Below are positions 1 through 17,149 of a stretch of DNA of 64,000 nt, one piece after another (the first letter of the stretch is position 1; each line of letters opens with the position of its first letter). This DNA comes from Methylocella sp. Lineage in GTDB: Bacteria; Pseudomonadota; Alphaproteobacteria; Rhizobiales; Beijerinckiaceae. The position numbers and the translations under genes were made by a program. The notes below the pieces were generated by a model that saw nothing but the letters and a program-made list of their open reading frames with translations, was not told where the DNA came from and made no database searches. Location of the stretch: NCBI GenBank assembly GCA_050728655.1, contig JBOHJQ010000001.1, forward strand, positions 7,146 to 71,145, written 5' to 3'.

Positions 1-1950
1 ACACAATCCCATTAAGATATAGGGGCCGCGCGGTTGCGCCTCGCGGATGAGGCGCACGTAATCGGTTGTGATCTCTTCCAGGCTGCGGCGGGGCAACGAA
101 CGAGGATGGCTGGGATCATACAGCTGAACACAAAGAAACGGCCGATCCGTTCCAATCCGTCGCGCGAGATTGTAATAGATCATCGTATTGTTGATGGCGA
201 TAATTGGCGTTTTGTTGCCGCGCGGTTGAACCTGGACAATGCTCCAAGGCTCCCGCGGCGTTTCGATCCTGGCCACATGGGCCACAAACTCTCGCACGGT
301 CGGCGCCTGAAAAAGGGTCATGACATCGATTTTGACGCCAAGGGTGCGCGCGACCTCGGTCATGAGCCGCATGGCCATCAGGGAATGCCCGCCGAGCTCG
401 AAGAAATTCGACGTGGGGCCGATTTCCGGAACATGAAGGACATCTTGCCAGATCGCTATCATTCTTGTTTCGGCATCGGTCGGCGCTCCGCTAGGCAGTG
501 CGCTTGGCGGCGGGCGCGATGCGTCGATCGGCGCAAAATCGTCGCGGGATTTGGGGCGAGCGATCCGGTCTCGAACTGGCGCAACCAGCGAGGACAATCT
601 CGCCTCGGGATTGGAAATAGCGTACTCGAAGGCGGCCATAAGGAATCCATGCAGCCGCTCGGCCGTTTGTCTTTCGAATAGGTCGGGCTTGTACTCCATC
701 GCGATCCGCCAGCCTTCCGGCCAATGCACCATGTAAAAATTGAAATCATAGAGCGCGCCGGAGGACAGCGACGGGAGGGCATTCAAGTAGAAGCCGCCGT
801 AGTCTTTATGATCCATGAGATCACGCAGGACGGTGAAATTGATGGAGATGAGCGGCGTGCGGCTGAGATCGCGCGGGGGATTGAGAACCTCGACTAGCTT
901 GTGGAAGGGCATCCGTTGGTGGATGAGCGCCTCCTGAACCGTTGCGTTCGCCCGGGCCAGGAATTCCGTGAAGGTCGGATCGCCGGACGCATCGAACCTT
1001 ATCACGAGATTGTTGAGGAAAACGCCGATCAAGTTCTCGATTTCGACCTCGTCGCGGCCGCCGATCTGAGTTCCGAAAACCACATCCGTCGCGCCGGTGT
1101 AGCGGTGCAGCATCGCCCCGATCACGGCGCAACCGAAGGCGAACGGCGTCAAATTGTGTTTGCGCGCGGCGTCTTCCAGCTTGTTCCCGAGCGCCGGCGG
1201 CAGACCGGCGGCGAGGATTTCGCCGCGATAGCTCGGCGCGGCCGGGCGCGCATGGTCTGAAACAATCTCGAAATAGGGTGCTCCCTCCAAATTGCGTTTC
1301 CAATAGGCAATCTGCGCCTCGAAGCCGGCACTGGCGAAATATTCCTTCTGCCAGCGGCAATAGTCGCCGTATTGCAGCGGCAGCTCGGGCAGATCGTAAG
1401 CGCGGCTGGCCTCCAGCGCCTCGGCGATCGTGCCAAATTCATGGGCGAGGAGGCGGATGCACCAGCCGTCGAAGGCGATCTCATGCGTGGTCAACAGTAA
1501 AAACCCGTGATCGGCGGACAGGCGCAGCAAGGTCACCCGGAACAGCGGCAATTGTCCAATGTCGAACGGCACGTGCGCCTCGCGGCGGCCCAACGCCATG
1601 GCTTCATCGAGCCGTGTTTCCTCGGGAAACGCCGTCAGATCGACAACCGACAAATGGAAATCGAGGTGGCTGGCGACTTCCTGCATGGGTTCGCCGTCCT
1701 TTTCGAAGAACCTCGTGCGCAGGATCTCGTGCCGCTCGATGATCGTCTGAAAGGCTCGCTCGATTGTCGCGGCGTTGAATCGCCCCTTCAGCTCCCAACG
1801 CAGGGCGATGTTGAGAACCGAACCTCCAGGGCTCAGCGCTTGGATGAACCAGCACCGCTGCTGCGACGACGACAAGGGAAATAACAGTTCGTCGCTCGGC
1901 TTCGTCTCCGGGTCTGGCAATTGATGATCCCCCTCCATCGTCATTTCCAT
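1..1950 (-). CDS. NRPS terminal module, 3'-truncated by the window edge: condensation (C) - PCP - start of thioesterase (TE). No adenylation domain.
   Basis: The reverse frame is open from nt 1950 to nt 1, so it is absent from the ORF track. My translation runs MEMTMEGDHQLPDPETKPSDELLFPLSSSQQRCWFIQAL...IERHEILRTRF...LLLTTHEIAFDGW (C-domain motifs). It continues ...TRMIAIWQDVLHVPEIGPTSNFFELGGHSLMAMRL (PCP, Ser codon at 382-384), then ...KTPIIAINNTMIYYNL...AQPRGPYILMGLC (TE start). The ATG at 1950 lies 2 nt after the TGA of the upstream gene. Confidence 0.85.
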   Translation of the reverse strand, partial: MEMTMEGDHQLPDPETKPSDELLFPLSSSQQRCWFIQALSPGGSVLNIALRWELKGRFNAATIERAFQTIIERHEILRTRFFEKDGEPMQEVASHLDFHLSVVDLTAFPEETRLDEAMALGRREAHVPFDIGQLPLFRVTLLRLSADHGFLLLTTHEIAFDGWCIRLLAHEFGTIAEALEASRAYDLPELPLQYGDYCRWQKEYFASAGFEAQIAYWKRNLEGAPYFEIVSDHARPAAPSYRGEILAAGLPPALGNKLEDAARKHNLTPFAFGCAVIGAMLHRYTGATDVVFGTQIGGRDEVEIENLIGVFLNNLVIRFDASGDPTFTEFLARANATVQEALIHQRMPFHKLVEVLNPPRDLSRTPLISINFTVLRDLMDHKDYGGFYLNALPSLSSGALYDFNFYMVHWPEGWRIAMEYKPDLFERQTAERLHGFLMAAFEYAISNPEARLSSLVAPVRDRIARPKSRDDFAPIDASRPPPSALPSGAPTDAETRMIAIWQDVLHVPEIGPTSNFFELGGHSLMAMRLMTEVARTLGVKIDVMTLFQAPTVREFVAHVARIETPREPWSIVQVQPRGNKTPIIAINNTMIYYNLARRIGTDRPFLCVQLYDPSHPRSLPRRSLEEITTDYVRLIREAQPRGPYILMGLC

Positions 1951-1952
1951 TG

Positions 1953-4900
1953 TCATCCCGATGCCCCGGCGCGGCGCCTGAAACTTTGCAGCGAGGGCGC
2001 CGCATTGCTCGGCGCGAGCAGAGAGTCCTCCGGCCGGTCATTCGCGGCCCGCGCCAATTCGGCAATCGTCGGATGCCGCATCAGCTGCGCCGCATCGAGG
2101 CCGAGGCCCTGCTGCCGCATCCGCGCCGCGATGCGGAATAGGTCGATGGAATCCGCCCCGAGCGCGAAGAGATTATCGTGAATGCCAATCTCGCCCGTTT
2201 GCAGAACTTCGCCCCAAATCGTCGCGAGCTTGGCTTCGAGGGGTGTCTGGGGCAACACAATGACTCGCTCCGGTAGCGCCTGCGCGGGATCGGGTCGCGG
2301 CAGCGCCTTGCGGTCGATCTTGCCGTTCTGGGTGCGGGGTAGCGCGTCGAGACGCAAGACCTGCGACGGCACCATGTAATCCGGCAATTCTTCGCGCAAT
2401 TTGGTTCGTAGCCCGCTCATGCTCTCGACGCTGCCTTCGGGCGCGGCGATATAGCCGACGAGGTCGCCGCCACGCAAAACCGCAGCCGCTTCCGGGCGGC
2501 CGGAAACACGCCGCAGGGCATCTTCGACATCGCCAAGCTCGATGCGGAAACCGCGCAATTTGATTTGGCTATCGGCGCGTCCGAGCAGCTCGAAGCGACC
2601 GTTCGCCAGACAGCGTGCGCGATCGCCAGTGCGATAGAGGCGCCCGCTCGCGCCGCTAGAAGACGGATTTTCGGTGAAGCTTTGCTGGGTGAGCGCTTGA
2701 TTTTTATGATATCCCCGCGCGAGCCCCGCGCCGGCGATGCAAAGCTCTCCGGCAACCCCGATTGCCGCCGTATTTCCCGCCGCGTCGAGGATACAGATCC
2801 TCGTGTTCGCGATCGGCCTGCCGAAATCGATCGCGCCGCCGGTTTGCCGTTGCGCCAGCGACCAGATCGTCGTTTCGGTCGGGCCGTACATATTCCACAG
2901 CTCGCCCGATCCAAGATCCTCGGCGAGTTTCCGGTCGAGCGCCTCGCCGCCGCACAGGATTTTGAGCCCCTTCGGATTGAGTCCCGCTTCCAGCAATACC
3001 CGCCATAGGGCCGGGGTGGCCTGCATCATCGTTGTCGAGGTGCGGGTGATCAGCGCGGCCAAGGAAAACGGGTCCATGACATCGGCCCGGCTCGCGATCG
3101 CGAGCTCGGCGCCAATCGTCAACGGCAAGAAGATTTCAAGAGCGGCAATATCGAAACAAGGCGTCGTCACCGCGAGGAAGACATCGGCGGCGCTAATGCC
3201 GGGCGATTGCCGCATCGCAGTCAAGAGGTTCACGACCGAGCGATGCTCGATATCGATGCCCTTTGGCCGGCCCGTCGAGCCGGAGGTGAAGATGCGATAC
3301 GCGAGATCGGTTGGACGCACCCGCGGAAGCGGCGGCAGTTGTTGTTCGGCCGAGTCCGCGCCGGCTTCGCCAATGCCGATGCAAATCGGGATCGCCGCTT
3401 TGATGCCGTCTTCGAGCGTTGCCGAAGTCAAAGCGATCTTAACATCGGCCTCGGAAACGATCGCGTGGATGCGCGCGGGCGGATAGATCGGATCGAGCGG
3501 AACATAGGCGCCGCCCGCCTTGAGGACGGCGAGCATGGCGACGGCCAGCTCCGCCGAGCGGTCGAGATAAATCGCGACCGGCGTTTCGTGTGCGACTCCG
3601 GCGGCAAGCAACCGCCAAGCCACGCGATCCGCGCGCATTATGAGCTCGCGATAGGTGAGGGTCGTGTCTTCGAAGCGGACCGCGACGGCGTCCGGCGTAG
3701 CCGCCGCCTGCAAATCGATCAATTCGTGAATGGCGAGATCCGGGATGGGACAATCCGGCCCCGCGAGGGCGCCATGCAGCGCCTGCTCCTCCGCCTGGGT
3801 CAGCATCGGCAGCCGCGCGGCCTCCCCGTCCATGTCGCCGGCGATCGCTTCGAGCAGCGTCCGGTAATGGCCGATCCAACGCGCGATGGTTGCCCGCTCG
3901 AACAAGTCCGTGCTGTAATCGCAATCGATGATCAGGCCGTGATCCTCCGCGACGACATTGAAAAACAGATCGAAATTCACAAACCGCTTGGGATTGGCGT
4001 CGGTCGAGACGGCGAGATCCTGGAAGGGAAGATTTTGCCCGATCCGCTCCAAATTGAATTGCGCTTCGATCAAAGGAAGCCGGTTAATCTCCCGCGGCAT
4101 GTCGAGCGCCCGAACGAGGGACCCGAAAGTGTAGCTTTGATGATCGGCCGCATCGAGAAGAAGCTGCTGAGTCTTGCGCGCGGCCTCGAGGAAGGTGACA
4201 TTGCTGGAGAACTGGGCTCGCAACGGCAGGAAGTTGACGCAATGGCCGACGAGAGGCCCTTCGCCGTGCAAGCTCTGGCCGGCGGTCGGAATGCCGGCAA
4301 CGACGTCGGTTTGTCCGCTCAAGCGGGCAAGCACCACCTGATAGGCGGTCAACAGCACGGCGAACAAGGTACAGCCGTTGCGCGCGGCCGCTTGCTTTAC
4401 GCGGTCGAACAGGGGAGCGTCGATCGTCCCGCGCAGCGTATCGCCGCGGAAACTCTTAAGCGCCGGGCGCGGATGATCGAGCGGTAGGGCCAAAGGCTCC
4501 GGCACTTGCGCGAATTGGTGCAGCCAATAGGTCTCCGCCTCCGGCTGCACCGCGCCGTGGCGCACCGCATAGTCAACGAAGCTGTGCGCTTGCGGCAGAT
4601 TGGCGGTGGCTCCGCTTAGGCGGGCCGAATAGAGCGTCCCAAGTTCCTCCAAGAGGATGTTCATCGACCAGCCATCGCAGACGATGTGATGGGCGGTCAT
4701 CACCAGCTTATGGCGGTCTTGGCCATGGTCCGGCACCAAGGTGAAGCGAATGAGCGGTCCATTGACCAAATCAAAGGGAGTCGCGGCCTCGCTTTCGATA
4801 ACATCGGCAAGACGTTTATCGAGAGTCTCATCCTTGCCGGCGTCGGCGATAGTGAAGGCCAGCGGTGCCGCGGGCATCACGGTAAAGCCCTCGCCCGCCG

Positions 4901-7900
4901 GCGCGAACCGGATGCGAAGCGCCTCGTGGCGCTGCACCAAGTCGCGTGCCGCTTTGCGAAGGGCGCGGGTGTCGAGGTTGCCGCGCAAATCGAGTGTGAC
5001 CGATTCGTTGAAGGCGCAGGAAGCGGCGTCGCCGAGTTGGGCGCTGAGCCAAATTTCCATTTGGCTTTCGGTCAACTGGCCTTGGCGCGCGGCAGATTCC
5101 GGCGTCCGCCCGAAAATGCCGGCGGCCATCATCTGTGCCGAAGCCGCATCGAAAGCCGCGACGATTTTCGATAGATCGGCATCGTCGTGGGTGGTCGTCA
5201 GGAAACAGGGGAAGCCTTCGCGGATATGAATGCCCTGTTCGCGTAGCACGTAATAGAAGAGCGACGCGAAATGATGTTCGGCGGGGAATTTGACGAAGAA
5301 GATCGAGCCGAAATGATGAATTTCGGCCGGCACGCCATGGCGCTCGAAGACGCCGTTAAGGTCGTCCACGAGACGTCCGGTACGCTCGGACAAATTTTCC
5401 AGCAGGCTTGGCCCGGCTGCTTTTAGATGCTTCAAAACCGCGGCAGTGGCGGCGAGCGTCAGCGGGTGGCGCACGAACGTGCCGGCGAAGAAGGTCACTC
5501 CGACGGCCGGATAGGAATCGTCGCCATATTGCCAGAACCCGCCGTCGAGAGCGTCCATGAACGCGGCCTTGCCGGCCAAGATGCCGATAGGCATGCCGCC
5601 GCCGGCCACCTTGCCATAGGTGACCAGATCGGCGCGGATGCCGAACAAGGCCTGGACGCCGCCCGGATGGACGCGGAAGCCAGTAACGATTTCGTCAAAA
5701 ATTAAAACGGTCCCAGCCTTGGCGGTCAGGTCGCGCAACGCCTGCAGGAATTGGCGGGGACGCAAGTCCGGCCGCCGGCTCTGCACGGGTTCGACGAGGA
5801 CCGCCGCCAATTCATGGACGTGCCGTTCGAGCCAGGCGAGGCTCTCGGGGGTTCCGTAGTCCAGGATGGTGATGTTAGCGATGGATTCGGCGGGAATACC
5901 TGGAGCGACCGGGAATACCCGCGCAACCCCCTCGCGAACGCCGCCGCGCGCCAAAACTTCGTCGAATTGGCCGTGGTAGTCGCCTGAGAAATAGACGACG
6001 CGGTTGCGCCCGGTCACCGTTCGCGCGATCCGCATCGCCGCCATCACCGCTTCTGATCCGGTGTTGCAAAAGGTCACCCGCTCGTTGCCGGTGAGATCGC
6101 AAAGTAGCTTTGCCACCTCGCCGGCAAGAGGCGTTTGCGGGCCCAATTCAAAGCCCCGGTCGATTTGCGCGATAAGCGCTTCACGAACGAAATCGGGTGC
6201 GTGGCCGAAGGCAGTCTGACCAAAGCCGTTCAAGAGATCGATATAAATGTTGCCATCGACGTCCCAAAGTTTCGAGCCTTCGGAGCGGACGGTGACGATC
6301 GGGTAAACGATCTCCTTCCATTCCGGATTAAATCCCGAGGCAACCCGGGGATCGGCGAGCACCGCGCGCGATGCCTGGGTCATCTCCTTGGAACCGCGCG
6401 TGCGGTTTGCGTAGCGTTCGATCAGATCGGCGACAAAGCGGCGTTGCCCAGCGTCGAGAGCGGCATCGCGCGCTTGCGTGAACGGCTTGAAGGGGCCATG
6501 CGCCTCGGTAGGTTTTTTCTCCGTAATTGGCTTTGCTTGAACCGGTGCCGCTGCCTGCGGGCGTTGCCGGACGGCTGGGGCCGCCGCCGCGGCCAAAGGC
6601 GCCGCGCCGCCGATCTGCCGTAAGGTTTCGAGCTGCCGGTTGATGAGGTCGGTCATGCTGGCAAGCTGCGCCGCCATGACTTGCTCGATGCCCTGTCCCG
6701 GCAAGGATGCGGCCACAAAACCGGATGGGGGGCTTGCGGCTGGAAGAGGCAGAGTGGAAACGGCCTCGGCCGGGCCTGGCGCAGCGATGGCGAGCTCGGC
6801 CGCAAATTCCGTCGCCGTTTGGTTCAAATGCTCGGCCACCGCATCGACCGTTCCAAGTTCGCCCATCATCTGGCGGAAGCTGACGGCGACATTGAAGCGG
6901 GTCTTGATGGCTTGGCTCGCCTGCGTGAGGAACAGCGAATCGAAGCCGAGTTCGAGGAAACTTGTGCCGCGCGGCGCGTCGGTGACGTCGATGCCCGAAA
7001 GATTTTCAAGGAGCGCCGCGAGTTCGGCCCGGATCGCTGCTTGGCGGTTGGGCATCTCGGGTTGTTGCGTGATCCCCCCATTGGGAGCCGGTTGCTGTGC
7101 TGTGTTCGTCATGGCGGTAATTTGATTCCCTTCAAAAGGCATGGTTGCAATGGTGCTGGCGCTTGGGGCATCGATAAAATAGCGCGACCGCTGGAAAGGA
7201 TAAGTAGGCAGGATGACGCGCCGTCGAAGTGCGCCATCATGCAACGCGCGCCAAACCGGCGCCGCTCCCGCGGTCCATAGGCGTCCGAGCGTATCGAGAA
7301 AGACCGCGTCCGCGGCGCGTTCCTCGAAGGGGTCCGGGAGCGAAGCGGCGATCAGAGGCGCCCCGCGCGCCGCACCGTTTTGGCGGGCGAGGCTCGTGAG
7401 TGTCCGCCCCGGGCCGGCCTCGATCAGGATTGGCGAAACTGGCTCGGCGAGGCACGCAAGTGCCGCAGCGTAGCGCACCGTCTCACGGCAATGCCGCGCC
7501 CAATAAAGCGGGTCCGTCGCTTGATCACTCGTTATCCACGTTCCCGACATGGAGGAGACGTAAGGGATCCGGGGGGGGCTTAGGGGAATCCGCGCCAACA
7601 ATTCTGCTAGCGGTTCGATCACCGGATCGACCATCGCCGAATGAAATGCATGCGAGGTCCGCAATCGGCGGCAGCCGGCGCCGCGGGCGGTTAGCGTCGC
7701 CTCGAAGGCGTCGATTGCCGGATGCGGCCCGGCGACCACGCAGACGGCATTGGCGTTGACCGCCGCGATCGAGAGATTGCCGGGCAGGCAGTCCTTAAGT
7801 TCGGGCTCCGCCAGCATGACGGCGAGCATCGCTCCTTCCGGCAGCTCCTGCATCTTGGCGCCGCGCGTGGCGACTACCATCAGGGCGTCTTCGAGCCGCA

Positions 7901-9827
7901 TCACGCCACTGAGCGTCGCGGCGACGAATTCGCCAATGCTGTGGCCCAGCATTGCGGCGGGCGCAAAGCCCAGGCTCCGCCATAACTCCGCGACTGAGAA
8001 GCTGACGCTGAACAGGGCCGGCTGGGCGAGCGCGGTCGCCTGGAGTCGCGGTCCTGCTTCCAGCGGGTCGCCGAAAAGGACCTCCCGCAGGTCGAGGCCA
8101 AGCAAAGGTTGCAAAAACGAAGCGCATTGGTCGAGCGTGCGCGCGAAAACCGGATAACGCCGGTAAAGGCCCTGACCCATGCCAGGATATTGCGCGCCCT
8201 GGCCGGGAAACAGGAATGCAAGCTTTGGCGGGGATGCGGCCGCCGTTTCTGCTTTGCCGCGGCCGCCGAGTTTCTCTATCAGGTCGCGCCTTTCCTTGGC
8301 GACAGCGGCGAACCGCTTGGCGAAACCGCGCCTGCCGGTTTGCAAGGTGGAGGCGATGTCGGCAATGCTCTGCTCCGCGTGCGTTTCGACATGTGCCGCG
8401 AGGCGGCCACGAGCTTCCTCCAAGGCATTGTCGTCGCGGGCCGACAGGACAATGAGATGCGCGGCCTGGTCATCTTGGGCGGTAGCGGCGGCGGCCGGGA
8501 TCGCGGGCGCTTCCTCGATGATCACATGGACGTTGGTGCCGCCTACGCCCGCCGCATTGACCCCGGCGATACGTGGTTTGGCGCCGCGCGGCCAAGGCCG
8601 CAACTCGGCATTGACGAAGAACGGGCTCTCCTCAAGGCCGAGTTTCGGGTTTGGGGTCTTGAAATGAAGCGTTGCAGGCAGGGTTTCATGTTCGAGCGCA
8701 AGAATGGTTTTGATGAGCCCCGTGACTCCGGAGGCAATGTCGAGATGGCCAATGTTCGTCTTGACCGTGCCGATCGCGCAAAATCCCTTGCGATTGGTGG
8801 TCGCCCCAAACGCCTTGGTGAGGCCGGCGATTTCGATCGGATCGCCAAGCGGGGTCGCGGTGCCGTGGCACTCCACATAGGAAATGGAGTCGGCGGCGAT
8901 ATCCGCCACGGCGTGAGCGAGGGCGATTACCTTGGCTTGGCCATCGCTGCTCGGCGCCGTAAAGCCGACTTTCGTCGCCCCATCGTTGTTGACAGCGCTG
9001 CCGCGAATGACCGCGCGGATCTGGTCGCCGTCGGCCAAGGCGGCGTCGAGACGCTTCAACAGCACCACGCCGGCGCCGCTGCCGAACACCGTCCCCGCCG
9101 CTTCGGCGTCGAAGGTGCGGCAGTGACCATCCGGCGAAACCATGCCGCCCTCCTGATAGAGATAGCCGCGCTTCTGCGGGAAGGTGATCGACACCCCGCC
9201 CGCGAGCGCCATATCGGCGCGATAATCGAGCAGGCATTGGCAAGCTTCGGCGACGGCAAGAAGCGAGGTCGAACACGCCGATTGCACGGTAAAGGCGGGA
9301 CCGCGCAGATCGAGCTTGTAAGCGGTCCGCGTCGCGATGAAATCCGCGCCGTTGCCGACGAGCGTCGGAAACTCGCCGACTTGATAATTGCCGGTCATAT
9401 TTTCGAGCCGCTGCCGGTCCTTCAGCACGTTATAGAGAAGGTAGGTATCGAAGCTGCTCCCGGCGTAAACCGCGATATCCCCAGGGAAAGCAGCCGGGTC
9501 ATAACCGGCGCTTTCCAGCGCCTCCCAGGCGATTTCCAGAAAGACCCTTTGCTGCGGGTCGGTCAGCTCCGCCTCGCGCGGCAGGAAGTTGAAGAAGCCG
9601 GCGTCGAACAGCTCGACTCCGTCCAAAATCGATCTTGCGCGTACGTAGCCAGGCTGGTTTTGCACCGAACGGCCGTAGGCGTCCTCCAGCTCCTCCGGAG
9701 GAAAATGGGTGATGGATTCCACGCCGCGGCGGAGATTGTCCCAGAACGCCTCGAGCGTCGACGCGCCAGGGAAGCGGCCGGCCATGCCAATCACGGCTAC
9801 GGAGGGAAGAGCATCTTGGGCGGACAT
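1953..9827 (-). CDS. Hybrid PKS-NRPS megasynthase: KS-AT-ACP-aminotransferase(AMT)-C-A-PCP
   Basis: 2624-aa ORF. KS (aa ~8-437, nt ~8517-9806): SACSTSL, ECHGTATPLGDP, NIGHLD. AT (aa ~535-835, nt ~7323-8225): FLFPGQGAQY, GHSIGEF, HAFHS (malonyl-type). ACP (aa ~930-1000, nt ~6828-7040): LGFDSLF. Class III PLP aminotransferase (aa ~1150-1565, nt ~5133-6380): CNTGSEA, LIFDEI, TYGKVAGGGMP. C (aa ~1583-2000, nt ~3828-5081): HHIVCDGWS. A (aa ~2030-2510, nt ~2298-3740): LAYRIFTSGSTGRPKG, NMYGPTE, YRTGD, GRADSQIKLRGFRIELGDVE, NGKIDRKAL. PCP (aa ~2525-2595, nt ~2043-2255): FALGADSIDL. Confidence 0.95.
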   Translation of the reverse strand: MSAQDALPSVAVIGMAGRFPGASTLEAFWDNLRRGVESITHFPPEELEDAYGRSVQNQPGYVRARSILDGVELFDAGFFNFLPREAELTDPQQRVFLEIAWEALESAGYDPAAFPGDIAVYAGSSFDTYLLYNVLKDRQRLENMTGNYQVGEFPTLVGNGADFIATRTAYKLDLRGPAFTVQSACSTSLLAVAEACQCLLDYRADMALAGGVSITFPQKRGYLYQEGGMVSPDGHCRTFDAEAAGTVFGSGAGVVLLKRLDAALADGDQIRAVIRGSAVNNDGATKVGFTAPSSDGQAKVIALAHAVADIAADSISYVECHGTATPLGDPIEIAGLTKAFGATTNRKGFCAIGTVKTNIGHLDIASGVTGLIKTILALEHETLPATLHFKTPNPKLGLEESPFFVNAELRPWPRGAKPRIAGVNAAGVGGTNVHVIIEEAPAIPAAAATAQDDQAAHLIVLSARDDNALEEARGRLAAHVETHAEQSIADIASTLQTGRRGFAKRFAAVAKERRDLIEKLGGRGKAETAAASPPKLAFLFPGQGAQYPGMGQGLYRRYPVFARTLDQCASFLQPLLGLDLREVLFGDPLEAGPRLQATALAQPALFSVSFSVAELWRSLGFAPAAMLGHSIGEFVAATLSGVMRLEDALMVVATRGAKMQELPEGAMLAVMLAEPELKDCLPGNLSIAAVNANAVCVVAGPHPAIDAFEATLTARGAGCRRLRTSHAFHSAMVDPVIEPLAELLARIPLSPPRIPYVSSMSGTWITSDQATDPLYWARHCRETVRYAAALACLAEPVSPILIEAGPGRTLTSLARQNGAARGAPLIAASLPDPFEERAADAVFLDTLGRLWTAGAAPVWRALHDGALRRRVILPTYPFQRSRYFIDAPSASTIATMPFEGNQITAMTNTAQQPAPNGGITQQPEMPNRQAAIRAELAALLENLSGIDVTDAPRGTSFLELGFDSLFLTQASQAIKTRFNVAVSFRQMMGELGTVDAVAEHLNQTATEFAAELAIAAPGPAEAVSTLPLPAASPPSGFVAASLPGQGIEQVMAAQLASMTDLINRQLETLRQIGGAAPLAAAAAPAVRQRPQAAAPVQAKPITEKKPTEAHGPFKPFTQARDAALDAGQRRFVADLIERYANRTRGSKEMTQASRAVLADPRVASGFNPEWKEIVYPIVTVRSEGSKLWDVDGNIYIDLLNGFGQTAFGHAPDFVREALIAQIDRGFELGPQTPLAGEVAKLLCDLTGNERVTFCNTGSEAVMAAMRIARTVTGRNRVVYFSGDYHGQFDEVLARGGVREGVARVFPVAPGIPAESIANITILDYGTPESLAWLERHVHELAAVLVEPVQSRRPDLRPRQFLQALRDLTAKAGTVLIFDEIVTGFRVHPGGVQALFGIRADLVTYGKVAGGGMPIGILAGKAAFMDALDGGFWQYGDDSYPAVGVTFFAGTFVRHPLTLAATAAVLKHLKAAGPSLLENLSERTGRLVDDLNGVFERHGVPAEIHHFGSIFFVKFPAEHHFASLFYYVLREQGIHIREGFPCFLTTTHDDADLSKIVAAFDAASAQMMAAGIFGRTPESAARQGQLTESQMEIWLSAQLGDAASCAFNESVTLDLRGNLDTRALRKAARDLVQRHEALRIRFAPAGEGFTVMPAAPLAFTIADAGKDETLDKRLADVIESEAATPFDLVNGPLIRFTLVPDHGQDRHKLVMTAHHIVCDGWSMNILLEELGTLYSARLSGATANLPQAHSFVDYAVRHGAVQPEAETYWLHQFAQVPEPLALPLDHPRPALKSFRGDTLRGTIDAPLFDRVKQAAARNGCTLFAVLLTAYQVVLARLSGQTDVVAGIPTAGQSLHGEGPLVGHCVNFLPLRAQFSSNVTFLEAARKTQQLLLDAADHQSYTFGSLVRALDMPREINRLPLIEAQFNLERIGQNLPFQDLAVSTDANPKRFVNFDLFFNVVAEDHGLIIDCDYSTDLFERATIARWIGHYRTLLEAIAGDMDGEAARLPMLTQAEEQALHGALAGPDCPIPDLAIHELIDLQAAATPDAVAVRFEDTTLTYRELIMRADRVAWRLLAAGVAHETPVAIYLDRSAELAVAMLAVLKAGGAYVPLDPIYPPARIHAIVSEADVKIALTSATLEDGIKAAIPICIGIGEAGADSAEQQLPPLPRVRPTDLAYRIFTSGSTGRPKGIDIEHRSVVNLLTAMRQSPGISAADVFLAVTTPCFDIAALEIFLPLTIGAELAIASRADVMDPFSLAALITRTSTTMMQATPALWRVLLEAGLNPKGLKILCGGEALDRKLAEDLGSGELWNMYGPTETTIWSLAQRQTGGAIDFGRPIANTRICILDAAGNTAAIGVAGELCIAGAGLARGYHKNQALTQQSFTENPSSSGASGRLYRTGDRARCLANGRFELLGRADSQIKLRGFRIELGDVEDALRRVSGRPEAAAVLRGGDLVGYIAAPEGSVESMSGLRTKLREELPDYMVPSQVLRLDALPRTQNGKIDRKALPRPDPAQALPERVIVLPQTPLEAKLATIWGEVLQTGEIGIHDNLFALGADSIDLFRIAARMRQQGLGLDAAQLMRHPTIAELARAANDRPEDSLLAPSNAAPSLQSFRRRAGASG

Positions 9828-11713
9828 TAACTGCCTGTGGACGAGTTCGCGTGGACGATCGGCGAACGGGCGCGGTTCTGGCGCGCGCGCCGTTGGAGTG
9901 CCGCATGCGCCGCGGCTTGCGAAGTGGCGTCGGCCGCTGACGCTCCGGACAGTCGGCCGTGCAAAAGGCGGATTGTTGGCAGGTCGAACAAATCCTGGAT
10001 CGAAATCTGTCCCGGGAAAAGCCGTTCGACGTCGTCATACACACCAAGGAGCTGAAGGGAAGTGCCGCCGAGGTCGAAAAAGTTTTGGTTAACATCGACG
10101 GTTTCCAGCTGAAGGTGATGGCGCCACAAATCGATCAGCATGGCCTCGATTGGGGCGGCATAATGGGGGTCCGAGGATTTTTTCGCCCGCACGTTAGCGG
10201 CCATGTGGCTCAGGGCGAGGCGGTCGATCTTGCCGGTCTGGGTTAGCGGAAATTCGTCAACCATCTCCAGGCGCGCCGGGATCATGTGCGGCGGCAAATA
10301 GCTCGTGGCGGCCTCCCGGAAAGCCGCTTCCGTGAGGGAGGCGTCTTTGCGTGGAATGACGAAGGCGACAAGATGCTTTGCACCATCCGCCAGGGTGCAG
10401 GCGACAATGGCTATGTCCGTGAGCGGGAGTTGCCGCCGTAACACGATTTCCACATGTTCGGGCTCAATTCTGTAGCCATTCAACTTGAACTGGTTATCCA
10501 TGCGGCCGAGAAAATGCAGCAGGCCCGCCTGGTCGCGCCGGACGAGATCGCCGGTGCGGTAAAGCCGTTGCCCCGGACCTTGCGCGAAACGGTCCTCGAT
10601 GAATTTTTGTTGCGTGAGCTCGGGAGCGTTAAGATAACCGTGCGCGAGCCCAGTCCCGCCAACATAGAGCTGTCCCGCCGAGCCTTCGGGGACTAGGCGC
10701 ATTTCGTCATCGAGAATACGCAAAACCGTGCCCGCGATCGGCCGGCCGATAGGCACTGGCGTATCGACCGGCAAATCCGGCGGCGCCGTGAAAGTCGTGG
10801 TGAAGGTCGTGTTCTCGGTCGGTCCATAAGCGACGATGAAACGACCGGGACCGAGAAGCCGTGCCGCCGTGGCGGCATGCGTGGGCGACATGACGTCGCC
10901 GCCTGCGATTAAATAGCGAAGCTTTCGCAATGGCTCCGGACACTGATCGATCATAAGGTTGAAGAGACCGCTCGTAAGAAACAGCGTGGTCACGCCTTGT
11001 TCCTCGATCGCGGCGGCTATCTCGCTGAAGCTGAGCAAGCCCGCTCCTGGAACCACCAGCTCGGCACCGTTGAGTAGCGCGCCCCAAATCTCGAATATCG
11101 AAGCATCGAAGCCTAAAGGCGACAACTGCAGAAAAATTTGATCGTCGGTAAACCGCATATAGCCGGGATTTTTGACCAGCCGAACAATGGCGCGATGCGG
11201 GATAACGACGCCTTTCGGCTCTCCCGTGGAGCCGGAGGTGAACATGACGCAGGCGGGATCCGAGCCGGCGATTTTCGCGGCCTCGCCCCGCCGGCCGGCG
11301 GGCACCGCCGATGGCCCGGCATCACCATCGATCACCGGCACCGCCGCGGCGAGTTGCGGGAAACGCCGCAGCGTTGCACCGTTCGATACGACACATTTCA
11401 ATTTGTGCCGCTGGATAACATCGAGAATGGCTTGCGGCGGGCTGCGTGGGTCGAGCGGCACGAACGCCCCGCCTGCTTTAAGCACCGCCAGGAAGGACGT
11501 GACGGTGGCCAACGAGCGGTCGAGGAGGATGCCCGCGAGCGCGCCTTGTTGAATTCCAGCGGCGGTGAGCCGGTCGCAAAGCGCGTCTGTCCGGGCATCG
11601 AGGCCGGCGTAGGTCAATCTTTCGGTGCCGCTCCGGACCGCGAAAAACCCGGGCTTTTCCGTGGCCTGAATTTGAAAACATTGGGGCACATCATCGAAAT
11701 CGTTTCCAGACAT
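9827..11713 (-). CDS. Stand-alone NRPS adenylation-PCP didomain protein (probable loading module)
   Basis: 628-aa ORF with A-domain core motifs LKAGGAFVPLDP, MFTSGSTGEPKG, FDAS, AYGPTE, QLYVGGTGLAHGY, YRTGD, GRMDNQFKLNGYRIEPEHVE and TGKIDR, followed by the PCP motif FFDLGGTSLQLL. Its TAA stop shares one nt with the ATG of the megasynthase (TAATG at 9825-9829). GAGG sits 8 nt upstream of the ATG. Confidence 0.93.
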   Translation of the reverse strand: MSGNDFDDVPQCFQIQATEKPGFFAVRSGTERLTYAGLDARTDALCDRLTAAGIQQGALAGILLDRSLATVTSFLAVLKAGGAFVPLDPRSPPQAILDVIQRHKLKCVVSNGATLRRFPQLAAAVPVIDGDAGPSAVPAGRRGEAAKIAGSDPACVMFTSGSTGEPKGVVIPHRAIVRLVKNPGYMRFTDDQIFLQLSPLGFDASIFEIWGALLNGAELVVPGAGLLSFSEIAAAIEEQGVTTLFLTSGLFNLMIDQCPEPLRKLRYLIAGGDVMSPTHAATAARLLGPGRFIVAYGPTENTTFTTTFTAPPDLPVDTPVPIGRPIAGTVLRILDDEMRLVPEGSAGQLYVGGTGLAHGYLNAPELTQQKFIEDRFAQGPGQRLYRTGDLVRRDQAGLLHFLGRMDNQFKLNGYRIEPEHVEIVLRRQLPLTDIAIVACTLADGAKHLVAFVIPRKDASLTEAAFREAATSYLPPHMIPARLEMVDEFPLTQTGKIDRLALSHMAANVRAKKSSDPHYAAPIEAMLIDLWRHHLQLETVDVNQNFFDLGGTSLQLLGVYDDVERLFPGQISIQDLFDLPTIRLLHGRLSGASAADATSQAAAHAALQRRARQNRARSPIVHANSSTGS

Positions 11714-11809
11714 CGAATCGCCTCAAAAATACGTCGTCGACAAAAAACGGCTGTGAACATAGTCTAACGCTTTAGTCTTTGAAACCCCCCAAATGGGGGA
11801 GGAGGCAAC

Positions 11810-11930
11810 AAAAACGGCATGTTTATGTTGCTTAGTTTTATGATGTATCATGAAATGCAATATTCATCAAGCTAGAATTAAGGCTAAAAAATTACGGTCT
11901 CTGTTATTTATTTTTCATTTGTTGTAAGTA
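11810..11930 (-). promoter_or_regulatory. Strongly AT-rich block upstream of the NRPS-PKS operon (candidate promoter or silencer-binding region)
   Basis: The run gtttatgttgcttagttttatgatgtatcatgaaatgcaatattcatcaagctagaattaaggctaaaaaattacggtctctgttatttatttttcatttgttgtaagta contrasts sharply with the GC-rich surroundings. It lies ~100-200 nt upstream of the first gene of the operon. No specific -35/-10 assignment was made. Confidence 0.3.
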
Positions 11931-12477
11931 ACGGGCACCCGCTCGATCTTCCAGGCATCCGTTTTGCCGTCGCTGGCGACCGACACCTCGCGTAAAAAAT
12001 CCCTCGCGAATCATGTTCTTAGGAGACTCCGGACGACGTTCTCCGAATTTGCCTTGGCGGCGGAATGCCCGAGGAATGCAGCGAAGCTCTTGGCGGCCCG
12101 GACCTCGCCTATCTGGTTCTGCGGGGGAATTTGTCCTTTTGTTAAAATTGGGTCATAAAAGTTTCGTTGCTACCTCATATAGGGAGTTTTGACAACGACA
12201 GCAGGCTTTCGCCCCTGGACCGGGCATCCGGTTTGCAGCGCCAGCGCTTGTCCGCAAATCGGAACGTGGCCCAATTTGGCACCGAGGCTGAAACGCCTGA
12301 GCGTCACGATCCTGCCCCCAGGTCCGTTTTTCCGTTGCCGAGTCGCACCGCGATCATCAAGACTTAACTGAAGCGCATCTTCGCAAGTCCTTGAGGATCT
12401 CAAGCGTCAATCGTCCCTAGCACCGCCGAGGGCGAGGATTCAAGCTCCAATTCGAAGGCGGAAGATGTGCATCGGTA

Positions 12478-12715: not shown

Positions 12716-12734
12716 CGCGCTACCGCCCGCGGTG

Positions 12735-12905
12735 ACGGCAAGGGTCACGGTGGAAGAAACCTCACCAATCGGTTGGGAGAGATTTGCTGGGCCATGCGGC
12801 GTAGTCCTCGGAATGCGCAGCCTTGGCATGTCGGCGCCGATGAAGATCGCCGAGAGTTTCGGGCTCGGGGCCGAGCATGTGGCGCCGCCGCCAAAAGCTC
12901 CCGGC
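12735..12905 (+). pseudogene. tkt: Relic of the 3' end of a transketolase gene (last ~55 codons only)
   Basis: ARVTVEETSPIGWERFAGPCGVVLGMRSLGMSAPMKIAESFGLGAEHVA matches the transketolase C-terminus pattern (..vavEA....gW.ryvG..G.viGm..FGaSAP...l...FG.t.e.Vv). Nothing of the preceding ~600 aa is present. Confidence 0.6.
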
Positions 12906-12965
12906 GCGGCGCGGCGGGCGGAACAAGCGCGCAGGATGATACGTTTCGCGCATAGGAGAACGCAG

Positions 12966-13994
12966 ATGCAACTTGGCATGATCGGACTTGGCCGAATGGG
13001 TGCAAATATGGTGACGCGGCTCATAAGGGCCGGTCACGAATGCATCGTTTACGACAGCCACCCGGAACCGGTGCGGGAACTGGTCAAGCAGGGGGCCGTG
13101 GGCTTGACCAGTCTGGCGGCGCTCGTGCAGAGTCTGTCAAAGCCCCGGGCCGTGTGGCTGATGGTGCCGGCCGCGGCAGTCGATCCCGTGCTTGGTTCCC
13201 TGACACCGCTGCTCGAATCGGGCGACATCGTGGCCGATGGGGGGAACTCCTACTACCATGACGACATCCGCCGCGCGACTCGGCTTAAGCAAGCTGGAAT
13301 TCATTATGTCGACGTCGGCGTAAGCGGAGGAGTATGGGGTTTGGAGCGTGGCTACTGCCAAATGATCGGCGGCGAGCCCGAGATAGTACAGTATCTCGAT
13401 CCGATCTTTCGCGCTTTGGCGCCGGGAGTGGCCGCCGCGCCCCGCACCCCAGGCGCAACTGGCGATCCAAAGCAGTCCGAATGTGGCTATCTCCATTGTG
13501 GTCCGAATGGCGGCGGTCATTTTGTCAAAATGGTCCATAATGGCATCGAATATGGCATCATGGCCGCCTATTCAGAAGGTTTGAACATTATCAAGAACGC
13601 CAATGCCGGCCGTGTGAGCCGCGCGGCAGATGCGGAGACGACGCCGTTGCGTAATCCAGAATTCTATCGATTCGCGTTCGACATCGCTGAGATCGCCGAG
13701 GTCTGGCGGCGCAGCAGCGTCATCGGCTCATGGTTGCTGGATCTTACCGCCGCGGCGCTACGCAAGAATTCGGAGCTGACGAGCTTCGCAGGACATGTCT
13801 CGGATTCCGGCGAGGGACGCTGGACGCTGCAGGCAGCGATCGACGAAGGAGTCCCGGTCCCCGTGATCAGCGCCGCCTTATTTGGGCGTTTCGAGTCCCG
13901 CGGGCTTGCCGACTATGCGGACAAGCTGCTGTCGGCAATGCGCTACGAATTCGGCGGCCACGTCGAGAAACCCGCAAGCACGGAAACGACTTGA
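12966..13994 (+). CDS. gnd: 6-phosphogluconate dehydrogenase, decarboxylating (short Gnd/YqeC-like form)
   Basis: I place the start at MQLGMIGLGRMGANMV (Rossmann GxGxxG) rather than the track start 12732, which fuses it to the tkt relic. Supporting motifs are DGGNSYY, VDVGVSGGVWG, GHFVKMVHNGIEYG and a C-terminal YEFGGH. Confidence 0.9.
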   Translation: MQLGMIGLGRMGANMVTRLIRAGHECIVYDSHPEPVRELVKQGAVGLTSLAALVQSLSKPRAVWLMVPAAAVDPVLGSLTPLLESGDIVADGGNSYYHDDIRRATRLKQAGIHYVDVGVSGGVWGLERGYCQMIGGEPEIVQYLDPIFRALAPGVAAAPRTPGATGDPKQSECGYLHCGPNGGGHFVKMVHNGIEYGIMAAYSEGLNIIKNANAGRVSRAADAETTPLRNPEFYRFAFDIAEIAEVWRRSSVIGSWLLDLTAAALRKNSELTSFAGHVSDSGEGRWTLQAAIDEGVPVPVISAALFGRFESRGLADYADKLLSAMRYEFGGHVEKPASTETT

Positions 13995-15383
13995 ATGCGC
14001 CACGCGGCCTCCGATGCGATCGTCTTCTTTGGTGCCACGGGCGACCTTGCCAAAAAGCAGATCTTTCCCGCATTGCAGGGCCTGGCTCGCGACGAAGGAC
14101 TGGATGTGCCGATCATCGGTGTTGCCAAGGCGGGATGGTCGCTCTCCCAATTGCAGGCGCGCGCCAAGGAGAGCATCTCCAGCCAGGGCAGTCTCGACGC
14201 CAAAGCCTTTGCCAAGCTCACCAGTCTGCTCCGCTATGTTGACGGCGACTACAATGATCCATCAACCTATGTGCGGCTGCGCCAGGAACTAGGCGAAGCA
14301 AGGCGACCGCTGCATTATCTCGCCATTCCTCCGAGCCTGTTTGCGATAGTGGCGGAAGGGCTCGCAAAACAAGGCGCCGGAACGGACGCACGCCTCGTTG
14401 TAGAAAAGCCTTTCGGCCACAATAGAGAGTCGGCACGCCAGCTCGATCGCATTCTCAACCGCTTCTTTCCAGAAGAAAACATCTTCCGGATCGATCACTA
14501 CCTCGGCAAGGAACCGGTGCAGAATATACTTTATACGCGATTTGCGAATTCGATGTTCGAACCGATCTGGAACCGCACCTACGTCAACAGCATTCAGATC
14601 ACCATGGCCGAGAGCTTCGGGGTGCAAGATCGAGGCAAATTCTATGATGAGACAGGCGCCATTCGCGATGTATTTCAGAACCACATGCTGCAGGTGCTCG
14701 CTAGCCTGACCATGGATCCGCCGACTGGTGAGGAATCCGACGCCGTGCGCGAGCAGAAGGCGGGTTTGCTGAAGGCTCTGCGACCGCTCGATGCGGCGCA
14801 TGTCGTTCGCGGTCAATATGCGGGCTATCAATCGGTGCCGGGCGTGAAGGCCGGCTCGACCGTCGAGACATTTGTCGCGGCCAAACTTTTCATCGATTCC
14901 TGGCGGTGGGCCAGCGTGCCGATTTACATTCGCGCCGGCAAGGCGCTCCCGGTGACGGCCACGGAGATAATGGTGGATTTCAAAAGACCACCGCGAGAAA
15001 CCTTCGCGGAGATTATTCCCGCCGCGTCGGGCCATATGCGGCTGCGGATCAGCCCAGACGTCACCATCGCGCTGGGTGTGCGGGTCAAACATCCAGGCGA
15101 GGGCATGAGTGGCGAGGACGTCGAGCTGATCCTGACCGAGCAGACGACGGCTTTCATCCCGCCCTATCAGCGTCTGCTTGGCGACGCTATGCATGGAATC
15201 GGGGATCTTTTCGGCCGGCAGGACATTGTCGACGCTCAATGGCGCATCGTGGAGCCGGTCCTGGACGAGGAGGCGCCGCCGAATACCTACGCAAAGGGAA
15301 GCTGGGGACCGGAGGAGGCCAGCCGCCTGATCGGGCCGGACGGCCCGTGGCACGATCCGGAGCAAGCGGTCCTGCGCCCATGA
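13995..15383 (+). CDS. zwf: Glucose-6-phosphate 1-dehydrogenase
   Basis: VFFGATGDLAKKQIFPAL (NADP site), EKPFGH and RIDHYLGKEPVQN (active-site motif). The ATG directly follows the gnd TGA. Confidence 0.95.
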   Translation: MRHAASDAIVFFGATGDLAKKQIFPALQGLARDEGLDVPIIGVAKAGWSLSQLQARAKESISSQGSLDAKAFAKLTSLLRYVDGDYNDPSTYVRLRQELGEARRPLHYLAIPPSLFAIVAEGLAKQGAGTDARLVVEKPFGHNRESARQLDRILNRFFPEENIFRIDHYLGKEPVQNILYTRFANSMFEPIWNRTYVNSIQITMAESFGVQDRGKFYDETGAIRDVFQNHMLQVLASLTMDPPTGEESDAVREQKAGLLKALRPLDAAHVVRGQYAGYQSVPGVKAGSTVETFVAAKLFIDSWRWASVPIYIRAGKALPVTATEIMVDFKRPPRETFAEIIPAASGHMRLRISPDVTIALGVRVKHPGEGMSGEDVELILTEQTTAFIPPYQRLLGDAMHGIGDLFGRQDIVDAQWRIVEPVLDEEAPPNTYAKGSWGPEEASRLIGPDGPWHDPEQAVLRP

Positions 15384-16290: not shown

Positions 16291-16330
16291 TCGAATGAGC
16301 GGATCGTGACGCAGCTGAGGTGTCTTTCCA

Positions 16331-17143: not shown

Positions 17144-17149
17144 CGTAAC

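What the first reader, a model, noticed from the sequence alone, without database searches (positions are those of the whole stretch)
1..300. Thioesterase nucleophile position appears to be Cys (GPYILMGLC at the window edge)
After the PCP, the last visible residues of the terminal gene read ...IREAQPRGPYILMGLC and the window then ends. In NRPS TE domains this segment normally reads GPYxLxGxSxGG (for example GPYYLLGYSLGG), where the Ser is the nucleophile. Here a Cys (tgt, nt 3-1) occupies that position. Cys-for-Ser TEs are rare. They have been reported for the obafluorin (beta-lactone) and sulfazecin (beta-lactam) synthetases, where they are linked to strained-ring formation. Together with the beta-amine installed upstream, this raises the possibility of unusual release chemistry.
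Basis: partly seen in the sequence, partly recalled or inferred. Interest (0 to 1): 0.7.

Follow-up and report, generated by a model that had tools for sequence, protein, structure and literature searches.

The report
Cysteine-nucleophile thioesterase ending an NRPS-PKS line
The release enzyme at the end of a small peptide-polyketide assembly line really does use cysteine instead of the usual serine, but it belongs to a large, mostly unstudied cysteine-type family (nearest solved relative: AB3403 of Acinetobacter) and not to the rare beta-lactam/beta-lactone-forming kind.

Summary
Window nt 3-1 (minus strand) is a TGT Cys codon ending ...GPYILMGLC. A near-identical contig (L018) supplies the missing 609 nt: GLCVSG...VVMAD...PGWH.

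The Cys sits at the nucleophile elbow:
- It aligns with the catalytic Ser of SkyXY, NocB and fengycin TEs, and with the Cys of AB3403.
- In an AlphaFold model (pLDDT 89) it directly follows strand b5.
- It is invariant in 109/109 orthologues.

The link to strained rings is not supported:
- The Asp follows b6 ("position I", as in AB3403 and BulbE). In ObiF and SulM it follows b7.
- ObiF and SulM are absent from the listed sequence and fold matches. The family profile scores SulM TE at -0.6 bits.
- The last working A domain looks Gly-specific, and Gly has no beta-nucleophile.

Cys TEs of this clade are not rare in sequence space. At least 132 distinct 50%-identity clusters carry Cys.

Most likely mechanism: transthioesterification to Cys, then release of a short Gly-terminated, vicinal-diamine chain, probably by amine attack or hydrolysis.

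The terminal module has other oddities. It has no A domain, and its C motif reads HExxxDG. The loader is an amino-acid A-PCP, judged by its family match.

Verdict: a new member of a known kind, of moderate interest.

The parts
1..3 (-). TGT codon for the TE nucleophile Cys (residue 652 of the visible protein; C86 in the TE-domain numbering used in this report)
   Evidence: Invariant in 109/109 orthologues. Aligned to the catalytic Ser or Cys of solved TEs.
1..27 (-). Nucleophile-elbow segment GPYILMGLC: strand b5 plus the elbow. The elbow is completed as GLCVSG just outside the window.
1..246 (-). Visible N-terminal third of the type-I thioesterase domain (from WSIVQVQ). It includes AINNTM in place of the usual HPxGG-type segment after the first core strand.
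   Evidence: Pfam PF00975; model secondary structure; coordinates
274..462 (-). Terminal peptidyl carrier domain. The pantetheine-attachment Ser lies in GGHS, nt 382-393.
   Evidence: PF00550, 72 bits. The FF[ED]LGGHS motif was found in 95 of the 120 retrieved proteins; the other 25 gave no match to the pattern. Coordinates.
586..1881 (-). Terminal condensation domain with a non-canonical active-site motif. H-E-IAF-DG (nt 1465-1485) replaces HHxxxDG. No adenylation domain lies between it and the carrier domain.
   Evidence: PF00668, 292 bits; motif survey; domain conservation
1..1956 (-). Edge gene, C-PCP-TE, cut by the window after residue 652. The full length is 848-854 aa, depending on which start codon is used.
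1953..9827 (-). Hybrid PKS-NRPS gene: KS (8661-9803), malonyl-type AT (7380-8216), ACP (~6828-7040), class-III aminotransferase domain (5217-6302), C (3777-5078), A with a Gly-like code DILALGMIWK (2319-3713), PCP (2046-2231)
9827..11713 (-). Loading gene, A-PCP. It is an amino-acid adenylation domain (code DAFFIGATFK, Val/Ile-like), judged by family match not to be a fatty-acyl-AMP ligase.
   Evidence: TIGR01733, 369 bits against a cut-off of 317; code. Conserved at about 73-82% identity in 9 orthologous loci.

Best explanation
The Cys is the catalytic nucleophile of a canonical type-I thioesterase with a Cys-His-Asp triad. Cys follows strand b5, Asp follows b6 and His follows b8. A long helical lid of about 85 residues covers the site.

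The domain belongs to a large, mostly uncharacterised clade of Cys-type TEs. The closest solved member of that clade is the TE of AB3403 from Acinetobacter baumannii. The closest biochemically studied analogue is BulbE-TE.

How it works (inferred):
1. The chain on the terminal carrier domain is passed to the Cys thiol by thioester exchange.
2. This gives an acyl-thioester enzyme, which reacts with amines more readily than an oxoester would.
3. The chain is released by attack of an amine or of water.

The assembly line (A(Val/Ile-like)-PCP; KS-AT-ACP-aminotransferase-C-A(Gly-like)-PCP; C-PCP-TE) should deliver a short, Gly-terminated chain. That chain would carry a 3,4-diamino acid made from an amino acid, malonate and a transamination. 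The most likely release is therefore intramolecular aminolysis by one of those two amines, giving a 7- or 8-membered lactam, or 10/11-membered if a second Gly is added. Plain hydrolysis is the alternative.

It is not an ObiF/SulM-type maker of four-membered rings.
For: Shown:
- The Cys aligns with the nucleophile of SkyXY-TE (GWSLGS), NocB-TE and fengycin TE, and with the Cys of AB3403 (GWCFGG). The family profile aligns AB3403 over the whole TE, lid included, at E=1.4e-23.
- The AlphaFold2 model has pLDDT 89 and pTM 0.87, with strands 81-85, 108-112, 213-218 and 241-245. C86, D113 and H250 each lie directly after a strand.
- Fold matches are type-I TEs: SkyXY, Pks13, AB3403, NocB, FAS and Srf.
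- Conservation among orthologues: C 109/109, D113 102/109, H250 99/109.
- 132 of the 145 best 50%-identity representatives have Cys. Those whose source records name an organism come from Alpha- and Gammaproteobacteria and Acidobacteriota, and two that were looked up lie in unrelated assembly lines.
- The upstream line looks intact: KS Cys-His-His, AT GHSIG/HAFH, aminotransferase DEIVTGFR/YGK, A-domain motifs.
- 12 of 27 Cys-TEs with an intact upstream A domain have Gly-like codes. AB3403 was crystallised with Gly in its A domain (PMC10510592).

From the literature:
- Replacing Cys with Ser in BulbE-TE abolishes lactam formation but not hydrolysis. The authors explain this by the greater reactivity of thioesters toward amines (PMC11536411).
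Against: - No product is known for this cluster or for AB3403, so the release step is inference only.
- An acidic pair (D220/E221; position 220 is acidic in 94/109) also follows b7. I had no model coordinates, so I could not measure which acid contacts the His.
- The terminal module lacks an A domain, and its C motif has Glu or Gln in place of the second His. How the chain reaches the last carrier domain is unclear, as is whether another residue is added.
- A-domain codes are predictions made by hand-aligning to a GrsA sequence recalled from memory.
Confidence: 0.7

Rival explanations
1. One reading: an ObiF/SulM-like TE in which the Cys enables 4-exo-trig closure to a strained beta-lactam or beta-lactone, using the beta-amine installed upstream.
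For: - A Cys nucleophile is present and invariant.
- An aminotransferase domain installs a beta-amine.
- An acidic residue also follows strand b7.
Against: - Asp113 occupies the position after b6. ObiF has Gly there, and an Asp there is reported to block loading of the substrate (PMC6668435). SulM has GG at that position.
- ObiF (6N8E) and SulM (8W2C) are absent from the 60 PDB sequence matches shown (of 65 found) and from the 50 fold matches listed.
- The family profile scores SulM TE at -0.6 bits.
- The elbow reads LCV, not SulM's QCN motif.
- The beta-amino residue is not C-terminal. A Gly-like A domain follows it, so the amine is not beta to the thioester carbonyl.
Confidence: 0.04
2. An ordinary hydrolytic TE. 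The Cys is a lineage trait of this clade with no special chemical consequence, and the product is a linear acid.
For: - The clade is large and sits in many unrelated assembly lines, which suggests a general-purpose domain.
- Thioesters and oxoesters hydrolyse at similar rates (PMC11536411).
- A separate alpha/beta-hydrolase gene follows the TE gene in several relatives.
Against: - Cys is strictly kept (109/109), although one base change would give Ser.
- In the three biochemically tested Cys TEs (ObiF, SulM, BulbE), Ser could not replace Cys for ring closure; where the Ser mutant's products were reported (ObiF, BulbE) it hydrolysed instead.
- The predicted substrate carries two free amines.
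Confidence: 0.2
3. The TE, or the whole terminal module, is a decaying and non-functional relic, and the Cys is a tolerated substitution.
For: - The module's A domain is degenerate in Lichenicoccus, reduced to a remnant in other relatives and absent from the window protein.
- The second His of the C motif is replaced.
- Some sub-clades lack the Asp or the His.
Against: - The C domain is the best conserved part of the protein: mean identity 70%, with 31% of columns at least 95% conserved.
- The first half of the TE core is conserved to a similar degree (71% mean identity).
- The linker where the A domain used to be has 0/35 conserved columns.
- The Cys, the carrier-domain Ser motif and most of the triad are kept across more than 100 orthologues.
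Confidence: 0.03
4. The TE acts as an acyltransferase to an external nucleophile (as Pks13 TE transfers to trehalose), or joins two chains, rather than closing a ring within one chain.
For: - Pks13 and FAS TEs, which have long lids, are among the best fold matches.
- The lid here is about 85 residues.
- A thioester enzyme intermediate favours amine acceptors.
Against: - No candidate acceptor-supplying gene was found in the window. The genes to the right of 11.7 kb encode primary-metabolism and glycosyl-hydrolase/transferase enzymes.
- The fold similarity is generic, with TM-scores of about 0.6.
Confidence: 0.08

Closest known systems
AB3403 (ABBFA_003403) thioesterase domain, Acinetobacter baumannii, PDB 4ZXH/4ZXI
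   Same: - Type-I TE at the end of an NRPS.
- Cys at the elbow (GWCFGG here against GLCVSG).
- Asp after strand b6 and His after b8.
- A long lid that aligns over its whole length (profile E=1.4e-23).
- Fed by a Gly-accepting A domain.
- Product and release chemistry are unknown for both.
   Different: - About 21% identity in the fold alignment.
- AB3403 is a complete C-A-PCP-TE module with a normal elbow ending in GG.
- Here the A domain is absent, the C motif is HExxxDG, and the residue two after the Cys is Ser or Ala instead of Gly.
BulbE-TE (bulbiferamide synthetase, Microbulbifer)
   Same: - Cys/Asp(after b6)/His triad (PMC11536411).
- The Cys is needed for aminolytic ring closure. This is the mechanistic model adopted here.
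   Different: - Its nucleophile is a Trp indole nitrogen, and it forms a 15-membered ring.
- Sequence relatedness to the window TE was not tested, because no sequence was available to me.
ObiF and SulM thioesterase domains (obafluorin beta-lactone, sulfazecin beta-lactam)
   Same: Cys nucleophile, and an acyl-thioester enzyme intermediate.
   Different: - Their Asp follows b7, with Gly or GG after b6. SulM has a QCN elbow. Their C-terminal residue carries a beta-nucleophile.
- None of these features is found here.
- No detectable sequence similarity.
SkyXY-TE (PDB 7CRN), the best sequence and fold match
   Same: The strongest match: profile E=1.5e-25 and Foldseek E of about 1e-15, with the same core and the same Asp position.
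   Different: It uses Ser (GWSLGS). It is a bifunctional enzyme that epimerises and cyclises a much larger peptide.
Aminotransferase-containing PKS-NRPS modules such as MycA (mycosubtilin) and McyE (microcystin). This comparison rests on my own knowledge and was not tested here.
   Same: The domain order KS-AT-ACP-aminotransferase-C-A-PCP, which turns a beta-keto thioester into a beta-amino acyl unit.
   Different: - The starter here is an amino acid loaded by an A-PCP protein, not a fatty acid or polyketide, so a vicinal 3,4-diamine is predicted.
- The line has only three modules.

Membership tests
Type-I thioesterase domain (Pfam PF00975, alpha/beta hydrolase) | Profile match above the curated cut-off | tested here: met
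   Full-length P0002 scores 63.2 bits against a cut-off of 26.4. The window fragment alone scores 21.9 bits, below the cut-off, because it is truncated.
Type-I thioesterase domain (Pfam PF00975, alpha/beta hydrolase) | Alpha/beta-hydrolase core with the nucleophile at a small-x-Nu-x-small-small elbow after strand b5, and a lid between b6 and b7 | tested here: met
   The model (pLDDT 89) has strand 81-85, then G-L-C86-V-S-G, then a helix. Lid helices span 125-204. The best fold matches are all TE domains.
Type-I thioesterase domain (Pfam PF00975, alpha/beta hydrolase) | Position directly downstream of a carrier domain at the C-terminus of the last synthetase | tested here: met
   The domain order is C-PCP-TE, with a stop codon after the TE.
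AB3403/BulbE-type Cys thioesterases (Cys nucleophile, Asp at position I) | Cys at the nucleophile position | tested here: met
AB3403/BulbE-type Cys thioesterases (Cys nucleophile, Asp at position I) | Catalytic Asp on the loop after strand b6 (position I) and His after b8 | tested here: met
   D113 follows strand 108-112 and aligns with the Asp of AB3403 (VMID), SkyXY, NocB and fengycin TEs. H250 follows strand 241-245. The His-Asp contact itself could not be measured, because no coordinates were available.
AB3403/BulbE-type Cys thioesterases (Cys nucleophile, Asp at position I) | Significant full-length sequence similarity to AB3403 TE | tested here: met
   Profile E=1.4e-23, profile positions 25-268 aligned to AB3403 residues 1077-1315.
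AB3403/BulbE-type Cys thioesterases (Cys nucleophile, Asp at position I) | Cys required for catalysis; Ser mutant diverted to hydrolysis | not testable with these tools
   Needs mutagenesis and enzyme assays.
ObiF/SulM-type strained-ring-forming Cys thioesterases | Cys nucleophile | tested here: met
ObiF/SulM-type strained-ring-forming Cys thioesterases | No Asp after b6 (Gly there); catalytic Asp moved to the loop after b7 (position II) | tested here: not met
   Asp113 is present after b6 in 102/109 orthologues. An acidic residue also follows b7, so only the first half of this criterion clearly fails. The criterion comes from PMC6668435 and PMC11298585.
ObiF/SulM-type strained-ring-forming Cys thioesterases | Sequence or fold relatedness to ObiF or SulM TE; SulM's Gln-Cys-Asn elbow | tested here: not met
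   Neither protein is among the 60 sequence matches shown (of 65 found) or the 50 fold matches listed. The family profile scores SulM TE at -0.6 bits. The elbow reads L-C-V.
ObiF/SulM-type strained-ring-forming Cys thioesterases | C-terminal residue with a beta-hydroxyl or beta-amino nucleophile (beta-hydroxy amino acid or Dap) | tested here: not met
   The last intact A domain has the code DILALGMIWK, which matches the Gly code DILQLGLIWK at 8 of 10 positions. This is a prediction only, and the loading of the terminal carrier domain is unknown.

The most novel reading that the evidence does not exclude
The terminal C(HE/HQ)-PCP-TE(Cys) protein may be a dedicated off-loading unit that adds no residue. 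In this reading the non-canonical C domain passes the chain from the upstream carrier thiol to the free thiol of the last carrier domain, and from there it goes to the TE cysteine. That would be an all-thioester relay. The Cys-TE would then close a medium-sized (7- or 8-membered) lactam onto one of the vicinal amines of a Gly-terminated chain. More broadly, this Cys-TE clade could be specialised for glycyl-terminated chains. That would give a predictive rule for a widespread but unstudied class of release domains.
Probability: 0.12. Interest if true: 0.65.

Novelty: new member of a known kind. Interest (0 to 1): 0.35.

Why it matters
Cys-for-Ser thioesterases are currently discussed mainly as markers of strained-ring or otherwise difficult release chemistry, on the basis of three characterised enzymes.

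This case shows that the Cys alone is a poor marker. The position of the Asp and relatedness to ObiF or SulM must also be checked. It also shows that a large AB3403-like Cys clade exists across several phyla and has no assigned chemistry.

The cluster is small (three genes) and is conserved in Beijerinckiaceae and related Alphaproteobacteria, including methanotroph relatives. It is therefore a tractable system for finding out:
- what this clade of TEs does;
- how a module with no A domain and an altered C motif functions;
- whether a vicinal-diamine peptide is made.

Tried and rejected
1. Recovering the source genome from genome contigs. It is not in that collection; the best match is 87% identical. 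Looking up P0002 by exact sequence also failed. P0001 led to L018, which solved the problem.

2. Reading the upstream 628-aa protein as a fatty-acyl-AMP ligase, which would imply an iturin-like lipopeptide. Rejected, because it passes the amino-acid adenylation model TIGR01733.

3. Looking for a lost starter C domain upstream of nt 11713. tblastn found nothing.

4. Finding names or characterised members for the Cys-TE clade through cluster look-ups. Only generic annotations came back.

5. Literature searches for this cluster type, or for a census of Cys TEs. Neither turned up. The product of the AB3403 pathway is still undefined according to PMC10510592.

6. Measuring the triad geometry in the model. 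Not possible, because the tool returns no coordinates; I used secondary structure and alignments instead.

7. Using intact third-module A domains in relatives to infer what loads the last carrier domain. The Lichenicoccus third A domain is itself degenerate. The Gly-type C-A-PCP-TE proteins P0126 and P0130 turned out to lie in unrelated clusters.
Full report
**1. The observation**

On the minus strand the window ends with ...DYVRLIREAQPRGPYILMGLC. The final TGT codon is nt 3-1. The gene begins at ATG 1956, overlapping the stop of the preceding gene. Pfam reads it as Condensation, PP-binding and the first 59 residues of Thioesterase PF00975. The description is accurate.

**2. The missing part**

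A protein search returned three full-length sequences that are 100% identical over the visible part (P0001-P0003, 848-852 aa). Contig L018 (GCA_975256035.1) carries P0001. It has no mismatch over window 1-1950 and one mismatch over the 6677 nt upstream, and it extends 609 nt beyond nt 1.

The domain continues GLCVSGIIAYEAAQQLRQVGEPVPLVVMADAW ... VIVLQSDEVV ... VPGWHVDMF and then stops. The complete protein passes the PF00975 cut-off (63.2 against 26.4 bits).

**3. Is the Cys at the nucleophile elbow?**

Yes.
- Searches of PDB sequences, with the single sequence and with a family profile, align the Cys with the catalytic Ser of SkyXY-TE (GWSLGS), NocB-TE (GWSFGG) and fengycin TE (GYSAGG). They also align it with the Cys of AB3403 (GWCFGG). 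AB3403 aligns over the entire TE, lid included, at E=1.4e-23.
- An AlphaFold2 model built from 23 family sequences has pLDDT 89 and pTM 0.87. C86 comes directly after strand 81-85 and before a helix. D113 comes directly after strand 108-112. H250 comes after strand 241-245. Lid helices span 125-204.
- Foldseek finds only TE domains at the top: SkyXY, Pks13, AB3403, NocB, FAS and SrfTE.
- Among 109 orthologous TE domains, the Cys and the Gly two residues before it are invariant. The Asp is kept in 102 and the His in 99.
- Twenty independently assembled loci encode the Cys, 18 with TGT and 2 with TGC.

**4. Is it the strained-ring kind?**

The papers on ObiF and SulM define those TEs by two features. 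One is the Cys. The other is a catalytic Asp moved to the loop after b7 ("position II"), with Gly at the usual site after b6. An Asp at the usual site is reported to hinder loading in ObiF (PMC6668435, PMC11298585). AB3403 and BulbE-TE have Cys with the Asp in the usual place.

- The window TE has the Asp in the usual place.
- ObiF (6N8E) and SulM (8W2C) are absent from the 60 PDB sequence matches shown (of 65 found at E<=10) and from the 50 fold matches listed.
- The family HMM scores the SulM TE sequence, taken from that paper's supplement, at -0.6 bits.
- The elbow reads LCV, not SulM's QCN.

One caveat remains. An acidic pair (D220/E221) also follows b7, as it does in AB3403. Without coordinates I could not measure which acid contacts the His.

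**5. How rare is it?**

A profile search of 1.84 billion representatives at 50% identity found 40,108 TE matches at E<=1e-3 and 1715 at E<=1e-30. Of the 145 new proteins among the best 150, 132 have Cys at the elbow and 10 have Ser; most of the Ser cases are proteins with two or more TE matches.

Where the source records name an organism, members come from Beijerinckiaceae, Acetobacteraceae, Nevskiaceae and Acidobacteriota. Two that were looked up sit in unrelated assembly lines. Cys TEs are therefore rare among studied enzymes but not in nature.

**6. The assembly line**

Three co-directional genes occupy nt 1-11713. To their right lie genes for primary-metabolism and glycosyl-hydrolase/transferase enzymes.

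- The 628-aa protein is an amino-acid A-PCP, not a fatty-acyl ligase. It scores 369 bits on TIGR01733 against a cut-off of 317. Its code is DAFFIGATFK, which is Val/Ile-like.
- The 2624-aa protein is KS (Cys-His-His intact), AT (GHSIG/HAFH, malonyl type), ACP, a class-III aminotransferase domain, C (HHIVCDG), A (DILALGMIWK, 8 of 10 matches to the Gly code) and PCP.

By collinearity the chain reaching the end is (3,4-diamino-acyl)-Gly. This is inference. The beta-amine is not beta to the final thioester, which is a second argument against a four-membered ring.

**7. The terminal module is odd in other ways**

- No A domain lies between C and PCP. The 35-residue linker has no conserved column.
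- Relatives keep an AMP-binding_C remnant (for example Methylocella silvestris P0075). Lichenicoccus roseus keeps a whole third A domain whose core motifs are degenerate.
- The C motif reads HEIAFDG in the window. It reads HQxxFDG in 76 orthologues, HExxFDG in 18 and HH in only 12.
- Even so, the C domain is the best conserved part of the protein: 70% mean identity, with 31% of columns at least 95% conserved. It is under selection.

Two readings are possible. The Gly A domain may load the last carrier domain in trans. Alternatively the C domain may relay the chain to the free carrier thiol. I could not decide between them.

**8. Mechanism proposed**

- Thioester exchange from the carrier domain to Cys86, activated by His250 and Asp113. 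This step is well supported by homology.
- Release by amine attack, giving a lactam through one of the two vicinal amines, or by hydrolysis. This step is inferred from the BulbE rationale that a thioester enzyme favours aminolysis and from the predicted substrate.
- A weak supporting pattern: 12 of 27 Cys-TEs with an intact upstream A domain have Gly-like codes, and AB3403 was crystallised with Gly. This sample was not corrected for shared ancestry.

**9. Verdict**

This is a new member of a known kind, the AB3403/BulbE-type Cys TE, embedded in an unusual and conserved terminal module without an A domain. Interest is moderate. The product and the release chemistry are unknown and can be tested.

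Noticed in passing
window 1465-1485 (minus strand); the C domain spans 586-1881: The terminal condensation domain has H-E-IAF-DG instead of HHxxxDG. Orthologues have HQ (76), HE (18) or HH (12). The domain is nevertheless the most conserved part of the protein. In a rough motif-based count, 103 terminal modules without an A domain have HQ or HE and 22 have HH. All 8 modules with an A domain and a recognisable H-type motif have HH; 5 others gave doubtful motif matches.
   Followed up: partly
window 463-585 (minus strand): the linker between C and PCP: The terminal module has no adenylation domain. Relatives show a series: a whole but degenerate A domain (Lichenicoccus roseus P0233, L022), then only an AMP-binding_C remnant (Methylocella silvestris P0075, P0034), then nothing (the window). 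The third A domain seems to have died first and been deleted later.
   Followed up: partly
proteins P0066-P0068, and P0093, P0095, P0102, P0105, P0107, P0113, P0119 (relatives, not in the window): In two sub-clades the TE His after b8 is missing, and a His appears next to the Cys instead (GHCLAG with PGWL; GLCVHG or GLCMHG). In most of the second group the Asp is also replaced, by Asn or Ser. This could be a relocated catalytic His or a loss of activity.
   Followed up: no
relatives retrieved; window 2319-3713 (the Gly-like A domain): Of 27 Cys-TEs with an intact A domain directly upstream, 12 have a Gly-like specificity code. AB3403 also binds Gly. This Cys-TE clade may prefer glycyl-terminated chains. 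The count is not corrected for shared ancestry.
   Followed up: partly
window 9827-11713 (minus strand): The loading protein is an amino-acid A-PCP with a Val/Ile-like code. After malonyl extension and transamination the line should make a vicinal 3,4-diamino acid, not the beta-amino fatty acid typical of lines with an aminotransferase domain. In L003 and L019-L021 this loader is replaced by a C-A-PCP whose A domain is only 33% identical.
   Followed up: partly
L003 13103-14440, L008 12811-14130, L013 12808-14106, L015 12818-14137, L019 12738-14075, L022 13964-15007 (left of the window edge): A DLH/PETase/PAF-AH-like alpha/beta-hydrolase gene, with an apparently hydrophobic N-terminus in the Beijerinckiaceae copies, follows the TE gene in six related loci. 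In L019 it is followed by a FUSC/AaeAB-type efflux system. Whether the window's own genome has this gene is unknown, because L018 ends right after the TE gene.
   Followed up: no
L011 about 11770-11950: The orthologous TE gene is frame-shifted. The ORF stops at 614 aa, and the elbow GPYILFGLCVAG appears in another frame. L013 and L015 show similar split matches in the large PKS-NRPS gene. These may be assembly errors in the MAGs rather than pseudogenes.
   Followed up: no
window 12732-19910 (plus strand): A sugar-phosphate metabolism block lies directly next to the cluster: 6-phosphogluconate dehydrogenase, glucose-6-phosphate dehydrogenase, phosphoglucose isomerase and a DeoC/LacD-type aldolase, with a bestrophin-like gene in between. 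The first ORF carries a short transketolase C-terminal fragment at its N-terminus, which suggests an over-extended ORF call or a gene remnant.
   Followed up: no
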